From assembly GCA_963758295.1 (NCBI GenBank), contig CAVWUU010000003.1, forward strand, positions 32,001 to 96,000: a stretch of 64,000 nt of DNA, read 5' to 3'. The DNA comes from Candidatus Eremiobacteria bacterium. Lineage in GTDB: Bacteria; Vulcanimicrobiota; Vulcanimicrobiia; Vulcanimicrobiales; Vulcanimicrobiaceae. A program made the translations under genes and the position numbers. The notes under the pieces are model-generated. The model had not been told where the DNA came from. It worked only from the letters and a program-made list of their open reading frames with translations, and ran no database searches. Position 1 is the stretch's first letter; every line of letters begins with the position of its first letter. This document shows, in pieces, positions 44,695 through 58,486 of this stretch.

Positions 44695-45418
44695 GTGAAA
44701 TACGAATGGAACGCACGCGTATTAGTAATCCTAGGTGCATTACTGCTCGCCTCGTGCGGCGGCGGAGCCGGCGGACCCGCAAACAATAACGGCACGGGCC
44801 TCCCGGCTCCCGGCACGCCGTCGAATGCTAACCCCGAAATTTCCTCGGTCGGTGCGGGGCCGTACAAACAGCTGGATCGTTTGAATCGTCCGGCCGTAAA
44901 CGAAGTGTTTGCAACGTTTGCGGAGCATCAGGGGAACAATACCGATACGCCAAACGATGATGCGAAGATGCTTGGCCCGCAAATCATGGCGTTCATGACG
45001 AACGTCGGCGGCCGCAGCACCTCAATCGCATCGGTCGAGCGAGCCGTACTCACGCCTGACGTGCAAATAGCCGACTTGTCGGGAACGCAGCAACGCTTGC
45101 ATCGGCAAAGCCCCGGGGACGTGCAACAATTATCTTGGCGTCGAGACGAAGGGCGCAACCCAAATGCCGGCTGGATTGAAACCATTCGGTGGCCGTGCTC
45201 TTACCGACGATATCGTTTCCATCTCTCTCGGAACGATCTTCGGAAATACCATTCCGGCTCTGAAACTCGCGCCTGACGACAACAAGGAATCGGACGGACG
45301 CGCCGATGCGTCGTTTCCGTCCGGACATCGTCCCAACCTCACAACCGATAACGTCACCTGGCAAACGGCCCCGAAGCACTTCACCACGACGTTCCCCTAC
45401 CTTGGAGCACCGCGGTAA
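44695..45418 (+). CDS. DUF4331-family lipoprotein (C-terminal half), frameshift near 45090
   Basis: Lipobox LASC; QLDRLNRPAVNE, GGRALTDDIV, DNV...FPYLGAPR. Confidence 0.8.
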
Positions 45419-50539: not shown

Positions 50540-50746
50540 TTAGCGGCTGCGCCGCAGTGCGCTCCCTTGCGATCGCAGCCGCCGCGCGATTTCGTCGTCG
50601 TCGAAGCGCTCGAGAAAGTCCTCGATGGCTGCTTCGGCGAGCGCCGACACGGAAACGGCATGCGTTGCTTTGAACGCGGTAAGCCGGCCGGCAAGGCGAT
50701 GTGGGATCGTGATCGTTAGACGTTTGAGGGACACCCGGGCTCTCAT
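50540..50746 (-). CDS. small ribbon-helix-helix-like regulator
   Basis: KRLTITIP beta strand followed by two helices (SVSALAEAAIEDFL). Confidence 0.6.
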   Translation of the reverse strand: MRARVSLKRLTITIPHRLAGRLTAFKATHAVSVSALAEAAIEDFLERFDDDEIARRLRSQGSALRRSR

Positions 50747-50755
50747 TACGAGTCT

Positions 50756-50782
50756 TAACGAACGGCGTCGTCTTTCAGATTT
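50756..50782 (-). promoter_or_regulatory. ECF-type promoter copy 4 (variant)
   Basis: Minus strand AAATCT-N16-CGTTA ending 9 nt before the RHH ATG. Confidence 0.55.
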
Positions 50783-50819
50783 ACTTGCTAATCATACGAA
50801 ACCCGGGTATTAAAACTCG

Positions 50820-51362
50820 GTGAGCGCCGTTGCGGAGATCAAAGACGACTTCGAGCTTTTCTACCGGCAATATCGGCCGCTCGTTTATGCCGTCGCTTTC
50901 AAAATCGTCCGAAACGCGCTTGACGCTGAAGACACCGTGCAAACGGTCTTCCTTAAAGTATGGAGCCGGCCCGGCGCATATCGCGGAGGAAACATCGAGA
51001 GCTGGCTCACTACGGTTACGAAGAACGCTTCGCTCGATTGCGTGCGACAATCGTGGCGTGTGAGCCCGTTCGCCTCTGCCGATGGGTATGCTGGCCGCCT
51101 TTCGCCGGGCGAAGACCTCCGGACCCGCGACTGCCGGGCGGCGGAAGATGAGGCCGTGCATCGCATCTCGGTCGCCGCGGTAATGAATGCCCTTGCGGAC
51201 CTCTGTCCCGAACAACGCGCCGCGATTGTAGCGGCCTTTGTGAAACAACAAACCCACCGGGGCATAGCCGACGGATCTTGTTTACCGCTCGGAACCGTGA
51301 AGACGCGCATTCGTTCGGGACTCGCGAAGCTGCGCCGTCGCTTCTCCGAAGAAGCGCCATAA
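50820..51362 (+). CDS. ECF sigma factor (SigK-like)
   Basis: DAEDTVQTVFLKVW, WLTTVTKNASLD, PLGTVKTRIRSGLAKLR. Confidence 0.9.
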   Translation: MSAVAEIKDDFELFYRQYRPLVYAVAFKIVRNALDAEDTVQTVFLKVWSRPGAYRGGNIESWLTTVTKNASLDCVRQSWRVSPFASADGYAGRLSPGEDLRTRDCRAAEDEAVHRISVAAVMNALADLCPEQRAAIVAAFVKQQTHRGIADGSCLPLGTVKTRIRSGLAKLRRRFSEEAP

Positions 51363-51418: not shown

Positions 51419-51901
51419 TTAGGCCTTCTTGCGACGGCCGCCGCGCGCGGCTTTTTTACGGCCTCCTGCGGCTTTACGCGTCGTTGCCTTTTTGCGTCCG
51501 CCGGTTGCCTTACGCGTCGTCTTCTTGCGTCCGCCGGTGGACTTTTTACGTCCGCCTGCCGCTTTTTTGCGTCCTGCGGTTTTCTTGCGTCCGCCGGTCG
51601 CCTTTTTGCGGCCGCCCGTCGACTTCTTGCGTCCTGCGGTCTTCTTTCTTCCGCCGGCTGCCTTTTTGCGTCCGCCGGTCGACTTCTTGCGTCCTGCGGT
51701 TTTTTTGCGTCCGCCGGTCGCCTTTTTCCGTCCGCCGGCGGCTTTCTTACGTCCGCCTGCGGCTTTACGTCCAGCGGTTTTCTTGCGTGCGCCGGTGGCT
51801 TTTTTACGGCCGCCCGTCGATTTGCGTCCTGCGGTTTTCTTACGTCCGCCGGCTGATTTGCGGCGGCTCGATTTGCGGCGCGTTCCGGATTCTTCGGCCA
51901 T
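51419..51901 (-). CDS. histone H1-like Lys/Arg-rich repeat protein
   Basis: MAEESGTRRKSS then tandem (G)GRKK(T/A/S)(A/T) units to the stop. Confidence 0.75.
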   Translation of the reverse strand: MAEESGTRRKSSRRKSAGGRKKTAGRKSTGGRKKATGARKKTAGRKAAGGRKKAAGGRKKATGGRKKTAGRKKSTGGRKKAAGGRKKTAGRKKSTGGRKKATGGRKKTAGRKKAAGGRKKSTGGRKKTTRKATGGRKKATTRKAAGGRKKAARGGRRKKA

Positions 51902-52036
51902 CGTGCCACCGTTCATCATGGTATCGGAGTCCATTCATTCCTCCTCGTCCCCCGGGGGACGAACAGCATTAATTATTGGACAGCGCAAAATGCGCTTTAA
52001 GCGCACTATAAAGGATTTTTGCAAATCATGCAAATC

Positions 52037-52114
52037 TGCGCGCGCGTCACACGCGTACGCGACGCACGCGCGCGTGTCGCATGCGTGCGCGTCACGCGTA
52101 CGCATACGCGCACG
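52037..52114. other. alternating purine-pyrimidine (Z-DNA-prone) tract
   Basis: Five abutting alternating blocks of 11, 14, 16, 15 and 22 bp, mostly CG/CA/TG steps. Confidence 0.8.
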
Positions 52115-52196
52115 AGACGACGACACGACAAGACGAAATCACAACGATCAAAAGGTTTTCAGCGGTTCGAGTAGTCCATTGGTAGGGCCCGGGGGT

Positions 52197-52226
52197 TTGC
52201 CCGGGATTGACGGCCGGGAGTATACT
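52197..52226 (+). promoter_or_regulatory. sigma70-type topA promoter, probably leaderless
   Basis: TTGCCC-N18-TATACT; GTG start 7 nt downstream; no SD. Confidence 0.55.
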
Positions 52227-52233
52227 AAGCCCC

Positions 52234-54367
52234 GTGAAAAAGCCCCTGATCATCGTCGAGTCGCCGACCAAGGCTCGGACGATCAAGAAGTTTCTCCCCG
52301 CGCGGTACGTCGTGAAGGCGTCCGTCGGTCACGTCCGCGATCTGCCGAAGAGTACGCTGGGTGTCGACGTGGAGCACGACTTCACGCCGAAGTATCTAAC
52401 GATCAAAGGCAAAGGCGACATTATCAAGGAGCTCAAGAGCGCGGTCAAAGGCGCGAGCGAAGTGTACCTCGCCACCGACCCCGATCGCGAAGGCGAAGCG
52501 ATTGCGTGGCACCTAGCCGAGCTGCTCAAGCTCGAGAACCCCAAGCGCATCGAGCTCCACGAGATTACTAAGGATGCCGCGCTCGCCGCTTTGAAGGACG
52601 CGCACCACATCGACATGGATCGCGTGAACGCGCAACAGGCGCGCCGCATCCTGGACCGTCTTGTTGGATACAAGATCTCGCCGCTGCTGTGGGCTAAGGT
52701 TCGCGGCGGCTTGTCGGCCGGTCGCGTGCAGTCGGTGGCGGTGCGGCTCATCGTGGATCGGGAACGCGAAATCGGCGCCTTCGTTCCAAAAGAGTATTGG
52801 ACCGTTACGGCTCAGTTGGCGAGAGACACGAAGAGCGATCTGGTGTTCCTTGCCGACCTGGTGGCCTTCAAGGGCGAGAAATACGAGATCCGTACAAAGG
52901 AAGAAACGGATCGGGTTCTAGAGGCGATCGATGGTGCACCCTTTACAATCGACTCGATCAAACGCCGAGAAGTAAAGCGAAATGCGCCGGCGCCCTTCAC
53001 GACTTCGACGCTCCAGCAAGAGGCCTCGCGCAAACTGCGAATCCGCGTGCGGCGCGCCATGCAAATCGCACAGGCGCTGTACGAAGGCGTAGATCTCGGC
53101 GGCTCCGAGGGCACCGTCGGTTTGATTACGTACATGCGTACCGACTCGACGCGCATCAGCGATCAGGCGCGGGAAGCGGCTCGCGAATTCATCGTCGACA
53201 CGTACGGCGAAGCGTTTCACGGCGGACGCCAACATAAGGTAAAAGAAGGCGCACAGGACGCGCACGAAGCGATCCGGCCTACCTCGGTTTTGCACACTCC
53301 GGAAAAAGTCGCGCACGTCCTCAAGCGCGACGAACTGCGTCTCTACACGATGATTTGGGAGCGGTTCGTCTCCTCGCAGATGGCCCCGGCGGTCTTCGAT
53401 CAGACGACTGTGGAAATCAAGGTCGCGCGATTACGGTTTCCGCGCGACCGGTAGCGTCATGAAGTTCGCGGGTTTCACCAAGGTGTACGAAGAGGGCCGC
53501 GATGAGGACGGCAAACAGCGCGGACGCGTACGGCTGCCGGAACTCACCGAGGGCGAAGTGCTCGACGTCCGTGCGATCGACCCGAAGCAGCACTTCACCG
53601 AACCCCCGCCGCGCTTCACCGAAGCCACGCTCGTCAAAGCGCTTGAAGAGAACGGCATCGGCCGGCCGTCGACGTACTCGACGATCGTCGATACGATCCA
53701 AGCTCGCGGCTACGTAACGCAAGAAGAACGGCGCTTCAAACCCACCGACATCGGCATCGCCGTGAACGATTTGCTGGCCGAGCATTTCAAAGACATCGTC
53801 GATCTCAAGTTCACGGCGGGCATGGAAGGCGACCTCGATAAAGTAGCCGAGGGCCACGAAGACTGGGTCGGGATTCTGCGCAGCTTCTACGGACCGTTTG
53901 CGACCGAACTCGAAGAAGCCGAGAAGAAACTTCCCAAGCTCGAAGTCAAAGACGAGCCGACCGACGAGATCTGCCAGAATTGCGCACGGCCCATGGTCAT
54001 CAAGACCGGACGTTTCGGCAAATTCATCTCGTGCACGGGCTATCCCGAATGCAAGACGACCAAACCGATCGTCAAAGACACGGGAGCGAAATGCCCCAAA
54101 GACGGCGGCATGATCGTGGAACGCCGGTCCAAGAAGGGACGCACGTTCTACGGCTGCGCAAATTATCCGAACTGCGACTTCGTGTCGTGGGATCGCGTAA
54201 TCCCCGAGCCCTGTCCGGTGTGCGGAAGCTACGTCGTCGCAAAGACGCGGCGCGGCGGCAACGTGCATCTGGAGTGTGCGGCGGATAAGGAACACGACGT
54301 GTCGTCGCTCGTGAAGCCCGCGCCGGGCGAAGAACCGACGGACGACCGGGAACTCGCCGAAGTTTGA
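52234..54367 (+). CDS. topA: DNA topoisomerase I, frameshift near 53425
   Basis: IVESPTKA, ATDPDREGEAIAWH, SAGRVQS, ITYMRTDS, GIGRPSTY, C4 zinc ribbons. Confidence 0.96.
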
Positions 54368-55719
54368 GACTCACCGTAATCGGAGGCGGCCTCGCGGGAT
54401 GCGAGGCAGCATGGCAAGCGGCGCAACGCGGCGTCGACGTAGATCTGTACGAGATGCGGCCGCATCGGAGCGGCCCGGCGCACAAGACCAGCCGTCTCGC
54501 GGAACTCGTGTGCAGCAACTCATTGCGCGGCGCGGCGATGGAGAATGCCGTCGGCCTGCTCAAAGAAGAGCTTGCGCGATTAGACTCCTTGATCGTCACG
54601 TCGGCGCGTGAAGCCGCGGTTCCGGCCGGCGGCGCGCTTGCGGTCGACCGTGACCGCTTTGCGGATCGCGTTGAATCGCGCATTGAAGGCCATCCGCGAA
54701 TTATGCTGCATCGCGAGGAAGTGGAATCGATCCCACTCGACCGGCCCGCAATCGTCGCGTGCGGTCCGCTGCCCGGCAGCGCGCTGCTTGCGGACATCGA
54801 CCGGGTGATCGCCCGCGTTTGCGCTGGGGGCGGACGGCTGCATTACTATGATGCCGCATCGCCCATCGTGGCGGCAGACTCCATCGACGAATCGCAGATG
54901 TACCGGAAGTCGCGCTACGAAAAAGGCGACGGCGACGATTACGTAAACATCCCGCTCGATAAAGAGCAGTATCTGCAGTTTTTGCACGACCTGCGCACGC
55001 TCGAACGCCACGCGCCCAAAGAGTTTGAAGCGGACTCCGCAGCGGGCACTCCATACTTCGAGGGCTGTTTGCCGATCGAAGAAATGGCCGATCGCGGCGA
55101 CGACGTCTTACGCTTCGGCCCGATGAAGCCGGTCGGGCTGCGCGATCCGCGCACGGGGAAGACGCCGTACGCCGTGGTGCAGCTACGCAAAGAGAACGTC
55201 GAGGGCACGGCGTTCAACCTCGTCGGTTTTCAGACGCGCCTCGCTTGGGGCGCACAGAAAGAGACGTTTGGGAAATTTCCGGGCCTCGCGAATGCTGAAT
55301 GGCTGCGCTTGGGCGTGATGCATCGGAACACGTTCATCGACTCGCCGCGCCTGCTCGACGGATATCTGAAATTGCGCGGAACCGGCGCGCTCTATTTTGC
55401 GGGGCAGATTACGGGCGCCGAAGGTTACGTCGAAGCTGCGGCGTGCGGCGCGATGACGGGCATTCACGCAAGCCGGGAGATGCTGGGCTTAGCGCCGGTC
55501 GACGTTCCGCGCGCGAGCGCGCTCGGCGCGGTGGTCGCACACTTGCAAAACACCGAAACGCACGACTTCCAACCGGCGAACGTCACATGGGCACCGTTCC
55601 CGGCGCTCGAACAACCCATTCGCGATAAAAAAGAGCGGCGCCGGCAGATGGCCGAGCGCGCGCTCTTGGAGCTGGAAGCGTTTAGCGCAGCGATTGCCGC
55701 AACGCCTGCTGCCGTTTAA
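54364..55719 (+). CDS. trmFO: methylenetetrahydrofolate-tRNA-(uracil-5)-methyltransferase
   Basis: GGGLAGCEAA, AELVCSNS, YFEGCLPIE, GVMHRNTF, FAGQITGAEGY. Confidence 0.95.
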   Translation: MRLTVIGGGLAGCEAAWQAAQRGVDVDLYEMRPHRSGPAHKTSRLAELVCSNSLRGAAMENAVGLLKEELARLDSLIVTSAREAAVPAGGALAVDRDRFADRVESRIEGHPRIMLHREEVESIPLDRPAIVACGPLPGSALLADIDRVIARVCAGGGRLHYYDAASPIVAADSIDESQMYRKSRYEKGDGDDYVNIPLDKEQYLQFLHDLRTLERHAPKEFEADSAAGTPYFEGCLPIEEMADRGDDVLRFGPMKPVGLRDPRTGKTPYAVVQLRKENVEGTAFNLVGFQTRLAWGAQKETFGKFPGLANAEWLRLGVMHRNTFIDSPRLLDGYLKLRGTGALYFAGQITGAEGYVEAAACGAMTGIHASREMLGLAPVDVPRASALGAVVAHLQNTETHDFQPANVTWAPFPALEQPIRDKKERRRQMAERALLELEAFSAAIAATPAAV

Positions 55720-56429
55720 CGAATCGCGTAGGTAATCGACACGCTCGAGTGCACGGGTATCATTAGATAGTCTTTGTGTTCGACGGCATTGCCAAAGGGC
55801 GAAATGGCGTAGGTCGTAGTGCAGGTACCGTCCGGCGCACTCCGATCGTTCGCGGTTATGGAAAGCACGCCGCCGAGGTTTGCGCCGATTTGCTTCGCAA
55901 TGCTCGCCGCTTTGTCGTGAGCTTGGGCGATGGCCGCGTCGCGCGCCTGCGTTTCAGCCGGAGCGCAATTCGGCGCTTGCAGCATAATCTGCGCGTCTTG
56001 CAACGCCGCGCCCGGGATATTGGCAATGGCTGCGCCGACCGAACTTACGCCCTTGTCGATCGATTCCGGAATCGGATGCGGTACAGTACCGGAGATCGAC
56101 GCAAATGGCGCGTTCCCGGGCGCGCTGAAATTCGGCGGAAGCTCGATGGAGCTACGCTCAACGCCCGAGGCAATCAACGCGTCTATCACCGGTTGCAAAA
56201 CCGTGCGGTTGAAGAGCGGCGCCGTCGTGCGACTCCCGAGCCGCAGGGTGATCCGGGCCGACGCAGCGGTCACTTTCCCCGTGGCGCTCGCGTTGACTGT
56301 GATGCCTTGCCGCTGCGTTTCATACGGCTGGTTCCCGCGGGCGGGCGGAGGCGGAATGAATTGCGCTTGCGCGCCTGCGGCCGCCGGCATTAATAAGGCA
56401 GCAGCCAAGAAACCCCACACTCTTTTCAT
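55716..56429 (-). CDS. exported SIMPL (DUF541)-like protein
   Basis: Signal peptide, [43 protein letters not shown]. Confidence 0.7.
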
Positions 56430-56507
56430 AAAGCGCTGTCTTGTAGGGCGGGCAGACCAAGCCTTCTGAAACTCTCGACCCGGGGCGTGGGTAGAAGTGG
56501 AGCGACT

Positions 56508-57041
56508 ATGAAGATTCGTTCAACGACGATCCTTGCCGTTCGCCGCGACGGCATGCTGGCGATTGCCGGCGACGGCCAGGTGACGTTCGACAAGACCATC
56601 ATGAAGCACAGCGCGCGTAAAGTGCGCAAGATCGCGGGGGGCAAGGTCGTTGCGGGCTTTGCGGGATCCGCGGCCGACGGCATTACTCTGCTCGAGAAGT
56701 TCGAAAAGAAGTACAACGAGTTCAAAGACGTGACGCGCGCGGCCGTTGAGCTCGCGAAAGACTGGCGGCAAGACCGCGCGTTGCGCCGTTTGGAAGCCTT
56801 ACTCATCGTGGGGACGCCCGAGCATCTTTTCGTCCTCTCAGGAACCGGTGATGTAATCGAACCGGACGAAGGCATTGCGGCAATCGGCAGCGGCGGTCCG
56901 TACGCTCAAGCGGCCGCGGCAGCGCTGATTCGCAACAGCGATCTTCCCGCGGACCAAGTTGCGCGCAAAGGTCTGGAAATCGCGGGCGAGATTTGCATTT
57001 ACACCAACGACGACATTACGCTCGAGAGTCTGTCCGCATGA
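56508..57041 (+). CDS. hslV: ATP-dependent protease subunit HslV
   Basis: [32 protein letters not shown]. Confidence 0.96.
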
Positions 57042-58486
57042 CCGCGACTCCCAAGGAAGTCAATGCGCTTACGCCGCGACAGATCGTGGCGGAGCTCGAC
57101 AAGTACATCGTGGGCCAAGCCAAAGCCAAGCGCGCCGTAGCGATCGCATTGCGCAACCGCTACCGGCGCGCGCGCGTTCGCGAAGACCTGCGTAACGAAA
57201 TCACGCCGAAAAATATTCTCATGATCGGGCCGACCGGTGTCGGCAAAACGGAAATCGCCCGGCGCCTTGCCGGGCTCGTCGGTGCGCCCTTCGTGAAAGT
57301 TGAAGCGACGAAGTATACCGAAGTCGGCTACGTAGGACGCGACGTCGAATCGATGGTGCGGGATCTTGTCGAGGCGGCAATCCGCATGCTCAGCGACGAA
57401 CGCCGCTCCGAGGTGGCCGAACTCGCGGAGAAACACGCCGTCGAGCGAATCATCGATGTACTCAATCCGGAAACCGCTCCGCGCCAGCAGCAACAAAATG
57501 CCAACCCGTTTGCGCAGACGTTGGGATCGATTTTCGGCAACAACTACAATGCTCCGCAGCCTCCGCCCCCGCAGCCGCCTCAAGCGCCGGCATCGGAAGT
57601 GTCGCGCATTCGCGAACAGACTCGTTCCGAAATCGAGCGCGGCTTCTACGATGTCCGCCTGATCGAAATCGACGTCGAAGAACAAGCGAGTTTGCCCATC
57701 GGCGTAATCGGCGGTGGAATGGATCAAGGCGGCATGGGCGGTAACGACATCGGCGAGATGCTCGGCGGATTGATGCCTAAGCGCCGCAGTAAGAAGCGTG
57801 TTACCGTCTCCGAAGCCCGCCGCGTCTTTGCGCAAGAAGAAGCGAACAAGTTGATCGACATGGACGCGGTGAAGCGCGAGGCACTACGGCGCGCTGCCGA
57901 AGACGGCATCATCTTTATCGACGAGATCGACAAAGTCGCCGGCCGCGAAGGCTCTCGCGGAGGCCCTGACGTTTCACGCGAAGGCGTACAGCGCGATATT
58001 CTGCCGATCGTCGAAGGATCGACCGTAACCACGAAACATGGCGCGATAAAGACCGATCACGTGCTGTTCATCGCAGCCGGAGCTTTCCACATCAGCAAGC
58101 CGTCGGATCTGATTCCGGAGCTGCAAGGGCGTTTTCCGATTCGCGTAGAGCTGGACTCGCTCACCGCGGAAGACTTCAAAACCATTTTGACGCAACCGAA
58201 GAACGCGCTGATCGAGCAGTACAAGGCGTTGCTTGAAACCGAAGACGTGGCGCTTGACTTCAAGGACGAAGCTATCGACCAAGTGGCGCGTTTCGCAATG
58301 CAGGTGAACGAGCAAAGTGAGAACATCGGCGCGCGCCGCCTTCACACGGTGCTGGAGCGGCTTCTAGAAGATGTGAGTTATGGAGCGCCGGACGAAACTG
58401 GAGCGGTCACGATCGATGCCGCCTACGTGCGCGAACGCTTGCAGGACGTCGTCGAAAACGCGGATCTCTCCGGGTACATTCTTTAG
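57038..58486 (+). CDS. hslU: ATP-dependent protease ATPase HslU
   Basis: [44 protein letters not shown]. Confidence 0.96.

What the first reader, a model, noticed from the sequence alone, without database searches (positions are those of the whole stretch)
52037..52114. 78-bp Z-DNA-prone tract between divergent histone-like gene and topA: possible built-in supercoiling sensor
Seen: TGCGCGCGCGT|CACACGCGTACGCG|ACGCACGCGCGCGTGT|CGCATGCGTGCGCGT|CACGCGTACGCATACGCGCACG is strictly alternating purine/pyrimidine apart from four phase breaks. It is non-coding, is not a simple microsatellite, and I saw nothing comparable elsewhere in the window. It ends about 80 bp upstream of the topA -35. Known: such tracts flip to Z-DNA under negative supercoiling, divergent transcription generates negative supercoils between promoters, and TopA removes them. 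Inference: a B-Z (or cruciform) switch tuning topA and nucleoid-protein expression.
Basis: partly seen in the sequence, partly recalled or inferred. Interest (0 to 1): 0.72.

Follow-up and report, generated by a model that had tools for sequence, protein, structure and literature searches.

The report
Selected Z-DNA-prone tract beside topA
A 78-base stretch of alternating pyrimidine and purine sits between the promoters of a histone-like gene and the topoisomerase I gene; related soil bacteria keep the alternation while the letters change, and unrelated bacteria have similar stretches at their topoisomerase promoters, so it is a good but untested candidate for a natural left-handed-DNA sensor of DNA twisting.

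Summary
The tract is real: 78 bp, four phase breaks, the strongest purine/pyrimidine alternation in its genome (score 57, next 22). It is under selection. Against a congener it shows 16 transitions and 0 transversions, while the adjacent spacer shows 28 transversions. In 29 of 36 family genomes with a perfect run of 30 bp or more, that run lies upstream of topA. The tract is anchored 0-4 bp from the histone-like gene's -35 (41 of 43 long tracts), not to topA's. Similar tracts sit at topA in Dormibacterota, a sphingomonad family and one actinobacterium, and at gyrA in two alphaproteobacterial families. A cruciform, an RNA family or a sequence motif is not supported. Best reading (0.62): a B-to-Z threshold element that absorbs negative supercoils and dampens the histone-like promoter. 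Against: no physical or expression data; many relatives have short or no tracts; in my model this broken version is not its genome's first Z site below sigma -0.045. This scan found the same element before in relatives, and the same class at gyrase and topA promoters elsewhere. My paper searches found no report of it.

The parts
52037..52114 (.). Alternating pyrimidine/purine tract, five phase-shifted segments (11, 14, 16, 15, 22 bp), CG-rich with CA, TG and TA steps
51419..51934 (-). Very basic histone-H1-like gene, 171 aa, 42 K + 28 R + 37 G, GGRKK repeats; 'histone-like' rests on composition only
   Evidence: no Pfam match at E<=0.01; Atlas: unnamed Vulcanimicrobiota clusters, third hit carries PF07382 HC2 in 28% of members
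52005..52033 (-). Predicted sigma70-type promoter of the histone-like gene (TTGCAT, 17 bp, TATAGT); the tract starts 3 bp upstream of its -35
   Evidence: scan reports the 18-bp TTTGCA register; 17-bp spacer in 110 of 112 loci with both anchors; no transcript data
51945..51962 (-). Perfect 18-bp palindrome in the predicted 5' UTR of the histone-like gene, next to its ribosome-binding site
   Evidence: I10; similar hairpins seen by eye in relatives
52115..52196 (.). Freely diverging spacer between tract and topA promoter; internal neutral control
   Evidence: 8 transitions / 28 transversions vs G003; replaced by 80 unalignable letters in contigs of runs X1 and X3
52197..52226 (+). Predicted topA promoter (TTGCCC, 18 bp, TATACT) with a conserved TTGAC inside the spacer; start codon 7 nt after the -10, so probably leaderless
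52234..54367 (+). topA (type IA topoisomerase), in two frames in this assembly (52234-53454 and 53459-54367); probably a sequencing indel
   Evidence: PF01751, PF01131, PF01396; most relatives have one open frame of about 700-950 aa

Best explanation
The tract is a cis-acting supercoiling-threshold element kept by selection on its purine/pyrimidine phase, and it works by flipping from B- to Z-DNA. SHOWN: selection on phase, genome-wide uniqueness, fixed position against the histone-like -35, recurrence at topA and gyrA promoters in unrelated lineages. MODELLED: segments start to flip at sigma about -0.036 to -0.043; the whole 78 bp becomes the genome's most favourable Z run at about -0.045 and would absorb about 14-15 turns. 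INFERRED: divergent transcription supplies the local negative supercoiling. The flipped tract then dampens the histone-like promoter, by occupying the DNA just upstream of its -35 and by taking up the torsion needed to open its AT-rich -10. The topA promoter, with an 18-bp spacer, favours high negative supercoiling and would respond once the buffer fills. The phase breaks set a later, more graded threshold than the perfect 44-61-bp tracts of sister genera. The sign of the effect on topA is not resolved.
For: Selection: G000 vs G003 16 transitions / 0 transversions in 78 bp, against 8/28 in the flank and 8/14 at 113 fourfold topA sites; vs G002 20/2, both transversions beside an indel. Genus g30, fixed 44-bp window: about 11 transitions per pair, 4 off-phase positions in the 15 of 16 genomes without a phase shift. 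Contigs: 12 of 12 (X1, X3) and 9 of 9 (X5) listed differences in the tract are transitions; 39 rows were not shown. Specificity: 36 of 348 family genomes have a perfect 30-bp run; in 27 of 27 checked by count all hits are the topA tract, 2 more by tblastn. Anchor: 41 of 43 long tracts start 0-4 bp from the histone-like -35. Convergence: in 5 of 5 unrelated genomes picked for such a hit, it is the only perfect 26-bp run; Dormibacterota family 30 of 30 loci at the dprA end, 29 with topA in the locus; sphingomonad family 15 of 30 loci at topA and 2 at gyrA; Phenylobacterium family 5 of 13 at gyrA. Model. Engineered precedent: a (CG)13AATT(CG)22 insert delays ilvPG activation by 13 turns (PMC10783518, section read).
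Against: No physical, reporter or transcript evidence. At constant sigma the window's tract ranks only 80th at -0.035 and 29th at -0.04 among Z sites of its genome, 1st at -0.045, 3rd at -0.05. Without it, other CG-rich sites in the same 2 kb flip by -0.045, so it lowers the clamp by only about 0.005. It is dispensable: long in 44 of 146 loci, short in 73, absent in genus g82, decayed in congener G004 (unpublished) and g19, 13 changes on the tree. TA steps, the costliest alternating step, are over-represented (119 vs 53 expected) and breaks are mostly GA/TC (24 of 52), the costlier Z-Z junctions (Table 1 of PMC3024258). Sphingomonad topA tracts are weak Z formers in the model. In the actinobacterial family only 1 of 8 runs is at topA. 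The model omits protein constraints and real in vivo sigma, and its helical repeat, junction twist and melting constants are partly recalled.
Confidence: 0.62

Rival explanations
1. A B-form shape element: alternating YR steps form a flexible or twistable stretch read by a protein (RNA polymerase alpha-CTD, the histone-like protein, or the topoisomerase itself), giving supercoiling-linked autoregulation without Z-DNA.
For: Fixed position against a -35; TA excess is better for flexibility than for Z; sphingomonad tracts are TA-rich, 26 bp in all 15, and cover the predicted start site; no Zalpha protein found, though that search was uninformative.
Against: CG is 684 of 1038 YR steps and runs reach 44-64 bp without a break, longer than a usual protein footprint; cross-genus identity is barely above composition (0.64-0.65 vs 0.59-0.61), so there is no base-specific motif; the protein lacks the KxKxK motif reported to bind Z-DNA (1 of 42 long-tract loci; PMC1635270 abstract).
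Confidence: 0.2
2. Neutral by-product: a (CG)n microsatellite that expands by slippage and decays by C-to-T changes, which keep the R/Y phase automatically.
For: Degenerate 15-bp period here and 6-bp period in g30; length is labile across the family; transitions in the tract (16 of 78) exceed those at fourfold sites (8 of 113).
Against: Transversions are missing where about 10-20 are expected (P 3e-5 to 2e-8 on the fourfold rate, three non-independent pairs); length is held at 43-46 bp in 12 of 16 g30 genomes; CpG is over-represented (1.56) and no C5 methyltransferase was found in the 82%-complete genome; neutral slippage does not explain the choice of topA and gyrA in unrelated lineages; such patterns are generally suppressed in prokaryotes (PMC4060949, passages).
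Confidence: 0.07
3. Cruciform or RNA hairpin: the self-complementary tract extrudes under supercoiling or folds in a transcript.
For: Many overlapping inverted repeats; mean folding z -0.51 over 43 tracts, 4 below -2, arms of 13-15 bp in 5; the sphingomonad tract is probably transcribed.
Against: Window tract: z -0.77 vs dinucleotide shuffles, -1.2 vs phase-keeping shuffles; longest perfect arm 6 vs 8.2 in shuffles; no Rfam match near a gathering score; it lies upstream of both predicted promoters.
Confidence: 0.06

Closest known systems
Engineered (CG)13AATT(CG)22 insert upstream of E. coli ilvPG (Sheridan, Benham, Hatfield 1999; original not held, described in the review PMC10783518, section read)
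   Same: A Z-prone tract near a promoter absorbs about 13 turns and delays supercoiling-dependent opening; similar capacity to this tract.
   Different: Artificial, 449 bp away, pure CG; here natural, mixed-sequence, abutting a -35 and kept by selection.
Supercoiling-sensitive topA promoters of mycobacteria (PMC4770202, abstract and passages) and Streptomyces (PMC5055605, passages)
   Same: topA under supercoiling feedback through promoter geometry and neighbouring transcription; here a non-optimal 18-bp spacer (90 of 149 loci), which PMC9303308 (passages) links to activation at high negative supercoiling.
   Different: Those use short spacers (13-16 bp); the word Z-DNA does not occur in either paper.
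Halobacterium bop promoter non-B-DNA element (Yang et al. 1996; title seen in a reference list only, paper not held; lead from earlier scan notes)
   Same: By its title, a natural prokaryotic promoter stimulated by supercoiling and a non-B structure.
   Different: Archaeal, not a topoisomerase gene; its length and position could not be checked here.
Lysine-rich histone H1-like proteins such as Hc2 (family name from the Atlas hit; function recalled)
   Same: Low-complexity K/R-rich repeat protein.
   Different: No Pfam match; membership not established.

Membership tests
Z-DNA-forming sequence | Alternating purine/pyrimidine run rich in CG and CA/TG | tested here: met
   73 of 77 steps alternate; 23 CG steps
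Z-DNA-forming sequence | Predicted to flip at attainable negative supercoiling, ahead of competing sites | tested here: inconclusive
   Onset -0.036 to -0.043 and dominant in its 2-kb neighbourhood; genome rank 80, 29, 1, 3 at -0.035, -0.04, -0.045, -0.05; perfect tracts of g30, g69, g81 far exceed every site of G000
Z-DNA-forming sequence | Left-handed helix demonstrated physically | not testable with these tools
   needs 2D gels, chemical probing or Z-specific binders
ilvPG-type structural-transmission promoter | A transition at one site changes opening of a promoter in the same domain | tested here: inconclusive
   Model only: opening of the histone-like -10 falls from 0.0032 to under 0.0001 at -0.06 and from 0.021 to 0.0001 at -0.07 when the tract may flip; melting constants recalled
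ilvPG-type structural-transmission promoter | Effect on transcription shown; a protein clamps the competing site | not testable with these tools
   no expression or binding data
Cruciform-forming inverted repeat | Long near-perfect inverted repeat above compositional expectation | tested here: not met
   longest perfect arm 6 bp vs 8.2 in shuffles
Simple sequence repeat / phase-variation tract | Perfect unit repeats with hypervariable copy number | tested here: not met
   mixed units, 70-77% identity between 15-bp periods; 77-78 bp in three congeners
Rfam RNA family | Match at gathering score | tested here: not met
   best 21.8 bits against thresholds of 50-100
Hc2-type histone H1-like protein (neighbour gene) | Match to the family model | tested here: inconclusive
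   no Pfam or NCBIfam match; Atlas third hit 0.90 with HC2 in 28% of members, low recognition score

The most novel reading that the evidence does not exclude
Prokaryotes have repeatedly evolved protein-free Z-DNA switches at topoisomerase promoters as the sensor for supercoiling homeostasis, and placement sets the sign: against the upstream edge of the -35 where high negative supercoiling should repress (gyrA in Alphaproteobacteria, the histone-like gene here), and just downstream of the -10 where it should activate (sphingomonad topA). Tract length and phase breaks tune each lineage's set point. Here one switch couples a DNA-compacting protein to TopA.
Probability: 0.4. Interest if true: 0.93.

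Novelty: new variant of a known kind. Interest (0 to 1): 0.8.

Why it matters
[quoted passage not shown] A natural element with a selection signature on helical phase, at the genes that control supercoiling, makes that old question directly testable with a plasmid, a 2D gel and a reporter. The natural series (none, 20, 44-46, 58-61, broken 78 bp) is a ready-made allelic panel, and the alphaproteobacterial cases offer hosts that are likely easier to work with.

Tried and rejected
Cruciform and RNA family: rejected. Coding use: a 380-aa and two short ORFs cross the tract, but tract and spacer lengths vary freely in relatives. Zalpha (PF02295): none in G000, but the control rang nowhere, so uninformative. 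CpG-methylation decay: no PF00145 match, control rang in 9 of 14, genome 82% complete. KxKxK-mediated Z binding by the neighbour protein: motif absent here, in 1 of 42 long-tract and 3 of 63 other loci. Idea that GAC/GTC breaks are the cheapest Z-Z junctions: the energy table says otherwise. The internal TTGAC as a genome-wide promoter element: 5 cases at gap 9 against 0-4 at most other gaps and 8-9 at the normal -35 distance; not convincing. A tract at G000's own gyrase genes: no run of 12 bp or more in the 4.5 kb upstream of gyrA. First Z model was limited to two runs and pruned runs across breaks; replaced by an exact calculation. Alignment used the wrong strand of L002 and is disregarded. 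Sequencing runs: no RNA holder listed. Not readable: Yang 1996 and Sheridan 1999. Supplements were not opened; gene lists in Z-DNA surveys could mention such tracts. A recollection that Streptomyces topA has an 18-bp spacer was wrong (13 bp).

Full report
OBSERVATION. The stretch 52037-52114 is as described: 78 bp, alternating at 73 of 77 steps, breaks after 52047, 52061, 52077 and 52092. In the 3.03-Mb genome (82% complete) it scores 57 on an alternation score where the next segment scores 22; chance is about 5e-9 per genome. It has a degenerate 15-bp period. It lies between a 171-aa K/R/G-rich gene on the minus strand (51934-51419) and topA (52234 onward; Toprim, Topoisom_bac and zinc-ribbon domains). 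The lineage is Eremiobacterota/Vulcanimicrobiota, from titles of named records whose topA is 83-85% identical and from Atlas taxa.

PROMOTER GEOMETRY. Both promoters are predictions. The histone-like gene has TTGCAT-17-TATAGT on the minus strand, with a 17-bp spacer in 110 of the 112 loci (of 150) where both anchors were found. Of those 112, 43 have a long tract (score 25 or more); 41 start 0-4 bp from that -35, while their distance to the topA -10 runs from 34 to 183 bp. So the element is tied to the histone-like promoter. topA has TTGCCC-18-TATACT; the spacer is 18 bp in 90 and 17 bp in 25 of 149 loci, and the start codon follows the -10 by 7 nt in 121 of 149. An 18-bp spacer goes with 40 of 43 long tracts and 37 of 69 others; kinship confounds this.

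SELECTION. I fetched 150 topA upstream regions: 30 and 120 of the 150 best matches listed, so close relatives are over-represented. Congeners G002 and G003 carry 77- and 78-bp tracts. G000 vs G003 differ by 16 transitions and no transversion, against 8 and 28 in the adjacent spacer and 8 and 14 at 113 fourfold sites; G000 vs G002 by 20 and 2. Genus g30 (16 of 16 fetched) has 39-62-bp tracts, g69 (7 of 7) 48-61 bp, g81 (3 of 3) 51-61 bp, each with a different sequence. In a fixed 44-bp window of g30, pairs differ by about 11 transitions, with 4 off-phase positions in 15 genomes; the 16th has a phase shift. Identity between genera is close to composition, so phase rather than a motif is conserved. 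Contigs from public soil and unlabelled runs show the same: all listed differences in the tract are transitions (12 in X1 and X3, one study; 9 in X5), with 39 rows not shown and no piece of this exact organism.

SPECIFICITY. A perfect 30-bp YR run occurs in 36 of 348 family genomes. In 27 the whole-genome count equals the count at topA; G157 and G214 are at topA by tblastn; G055 was not checked; six lie elsewhere and are mostly simple repeats. The window's own tract does not match this pattern because of its breaks. On a topA tree of 146 loci (4 dropped as short or frameshifted) g1, g30, g69, g81 and g19 form a clade (support 0.97) with decay in g19 and in G004; long tracts also occur in g10, g49, g51, g57, g76 and parts of g84 and g44; 44 long, 29 medium, 73 short, 13 changes. 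The element is common but not essential.

CONVERGENCE. Many are simple repeats, a large share from one assembly; I left 30 loci of that assembly out. Of 20 non-Eremiobacterota hits that I picked by eye as aperiodic and that had long flanks, 3 lie before topA and 2 before gyrA; the other 15 flank other genes. In five genomes followed up, the topoisomerase-adjacent tract is the only perfect 26-bp run. Family searches: Dormibacterota family, 33 of 43 genomes with a 30-bp run, 30 of 30 fetched loci in the 3' part of dprA, 29 with topA in the locus; sphingomonad family, 37 of 151 with a 24-bp run, 15 of 30 fetched loci at topA (all 26 bp, directly after a predicted -10) and 2 at gyrA; Phenylobacterium family, 13 of 151, 5 of them directly upstream of a predicted gyrA -35; actinobacterial family, 8 of 61, only the seed genome at topA. 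Kin are not independent, but these are at least four separate topA lineages and two gyrA families.

ENERGETICS. I used the dinucleotide and junction energies of PMC3024258 Table 1 (section read); q = 2200RT, nucleation 10 kcal/mol and 12 bp/turn agree with PMC10783518; 10.4 bp/turn, 0.4 turn per junction and the melting constants are recalled. An exact calculation on 2 kb of real sequence gives half-onset near -0.043, -0.038 and -0.036 for 2-, 5- and 10-kb domains, segment by segment, with residual sigma held near -0.034 to -0.038. With the tract forbidden, other sites flip by -0.045, so the gain is about 0.005. Half-onset is -0.037 to -0.039 for the three long g1 tracts, -0.033 to -0.036 for g30, g69 and g81, and -0.061 to -0.071 for tract-free g82. 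At constant sigma the window's tract ranks 80th (-0.035), 29th (-0.04), 1st as one 78-bp run (-0.045) and 3rd (-0.05) in its genome. It is a late, high-capacity version, weaker at onset than its perfect relatives. With melting added, the flip lowers opening of the histone-like -10 by about two orders of magnitude at -0.06 to -0.07, from low values, and the topA -10 does not open either way.

MECHANISM. Most likely (0.62) a B-to-Z threshold switch and torsional buffer between two divergent promoters, acting first on the histone-like promoter. Rivals: a B-form shape element read by a protein (0.2), neutral slippage (0.07), cruciform or hairpin (0.06). Unexplained under the Z model: the TA excess, the GA/TC breaks, and the weak sphingomonad tracts. 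A supercoiling-related function of some kind is more secure (about 0.85) than the Z mechanism.

KNOWN AND NEW. It works like the engineered Z insert at ilvPG (review section) and sits in the known setting of supercoiling-sensitive topA promoters. Six searches aimed at such elements listed no paper whose title or abstract opening describes natural Z-prone tracts at topoisomerase promoters; I read passages of only some, the library lacks most subscription journals, and no supplements were opened. Earlier notes of this scan report the same element in relatives and the same class at gyrase and topA promoters of other bacteria and archaea; these are unchecked leads except the Dormibacterota case, which I tested. 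Claims touching unpublished genomes: decay in G004; G024 and G036 in the 150-locus counts and tree; G687 and G703 among the 30 Dormibacterota loci; ten unpublished genomes as zero rows.

VERDICT. Observation confirmed, interpretation partly supported, new variant of a known kind, interest 0.8.

Noticed in passing
window 52208-52212: A TTGAC sits 8-9 bp before the topA -10 in 147 of 149 loci, more conserved than the presumed -35 itself. Role unknown.
   Followed up: partly
window 52221-52236: topA start codon 7 nt after the -10 in 121 of 149 loci: probably a leaderless mRNA.
   Followed up: partly
window 53440-53460: topA is split over two frames; similar apparent frameshifts near 45270 and 48860 suggest indel errors in this assembly.
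   Followed up: partly
window 51945-51999: Two inverted repeats in the predicted 5' region of the histone-like gene (an 18-bp palindrome by the ribosome-binding site; AGCGC..GCGCT with a variable loop), visible in many relatives.
   Followed up: no
L314, L317-L321, L329, L330, L333, L335-L340 at 1501-1526: Sphingomonad-family topA promoters carry a 26-bp alternating tract directly after the predicted -10, covering the start site.
   Followed up: partly
L303, L304, L306-L308, L316, L323 from 1501: Alternating tracts of 24-38 bp just upstream of the predicted gyrA promoter in two alphaproteobacterial families.
   Followed up: partly
L344-L373: Dormibacterota-family tracts, mostly 60-70 bp, inside the 3' part of dprA, about 200 bp before topA.
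   Followed up: yes
L181, L197, L232; L165, L216, L219: Other aperiodic alternating tracts lie beside integrase or D5-like primase genes, and beside M20 peptidase genes in three unrelated genomes.
   Followed up: no
window 50540-51362: An ECF-type sigma factor gene converges on the histone-like gene; a 68-aa ORF without Pfam match is divergent from it.
   Followed up: no
window 54364-58486: topA is followed by a GidA-family gene and, after an opposite-strand ORF, by genes that look like hslV and hslU (names recalled from the translations, not tested).
   Followed up: no
43 long tracts: TA steps are twice as frequent as independence predicts (119 vs 53), AT steps are not (50 vs 57). Unexplained.
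   Followed up: partly
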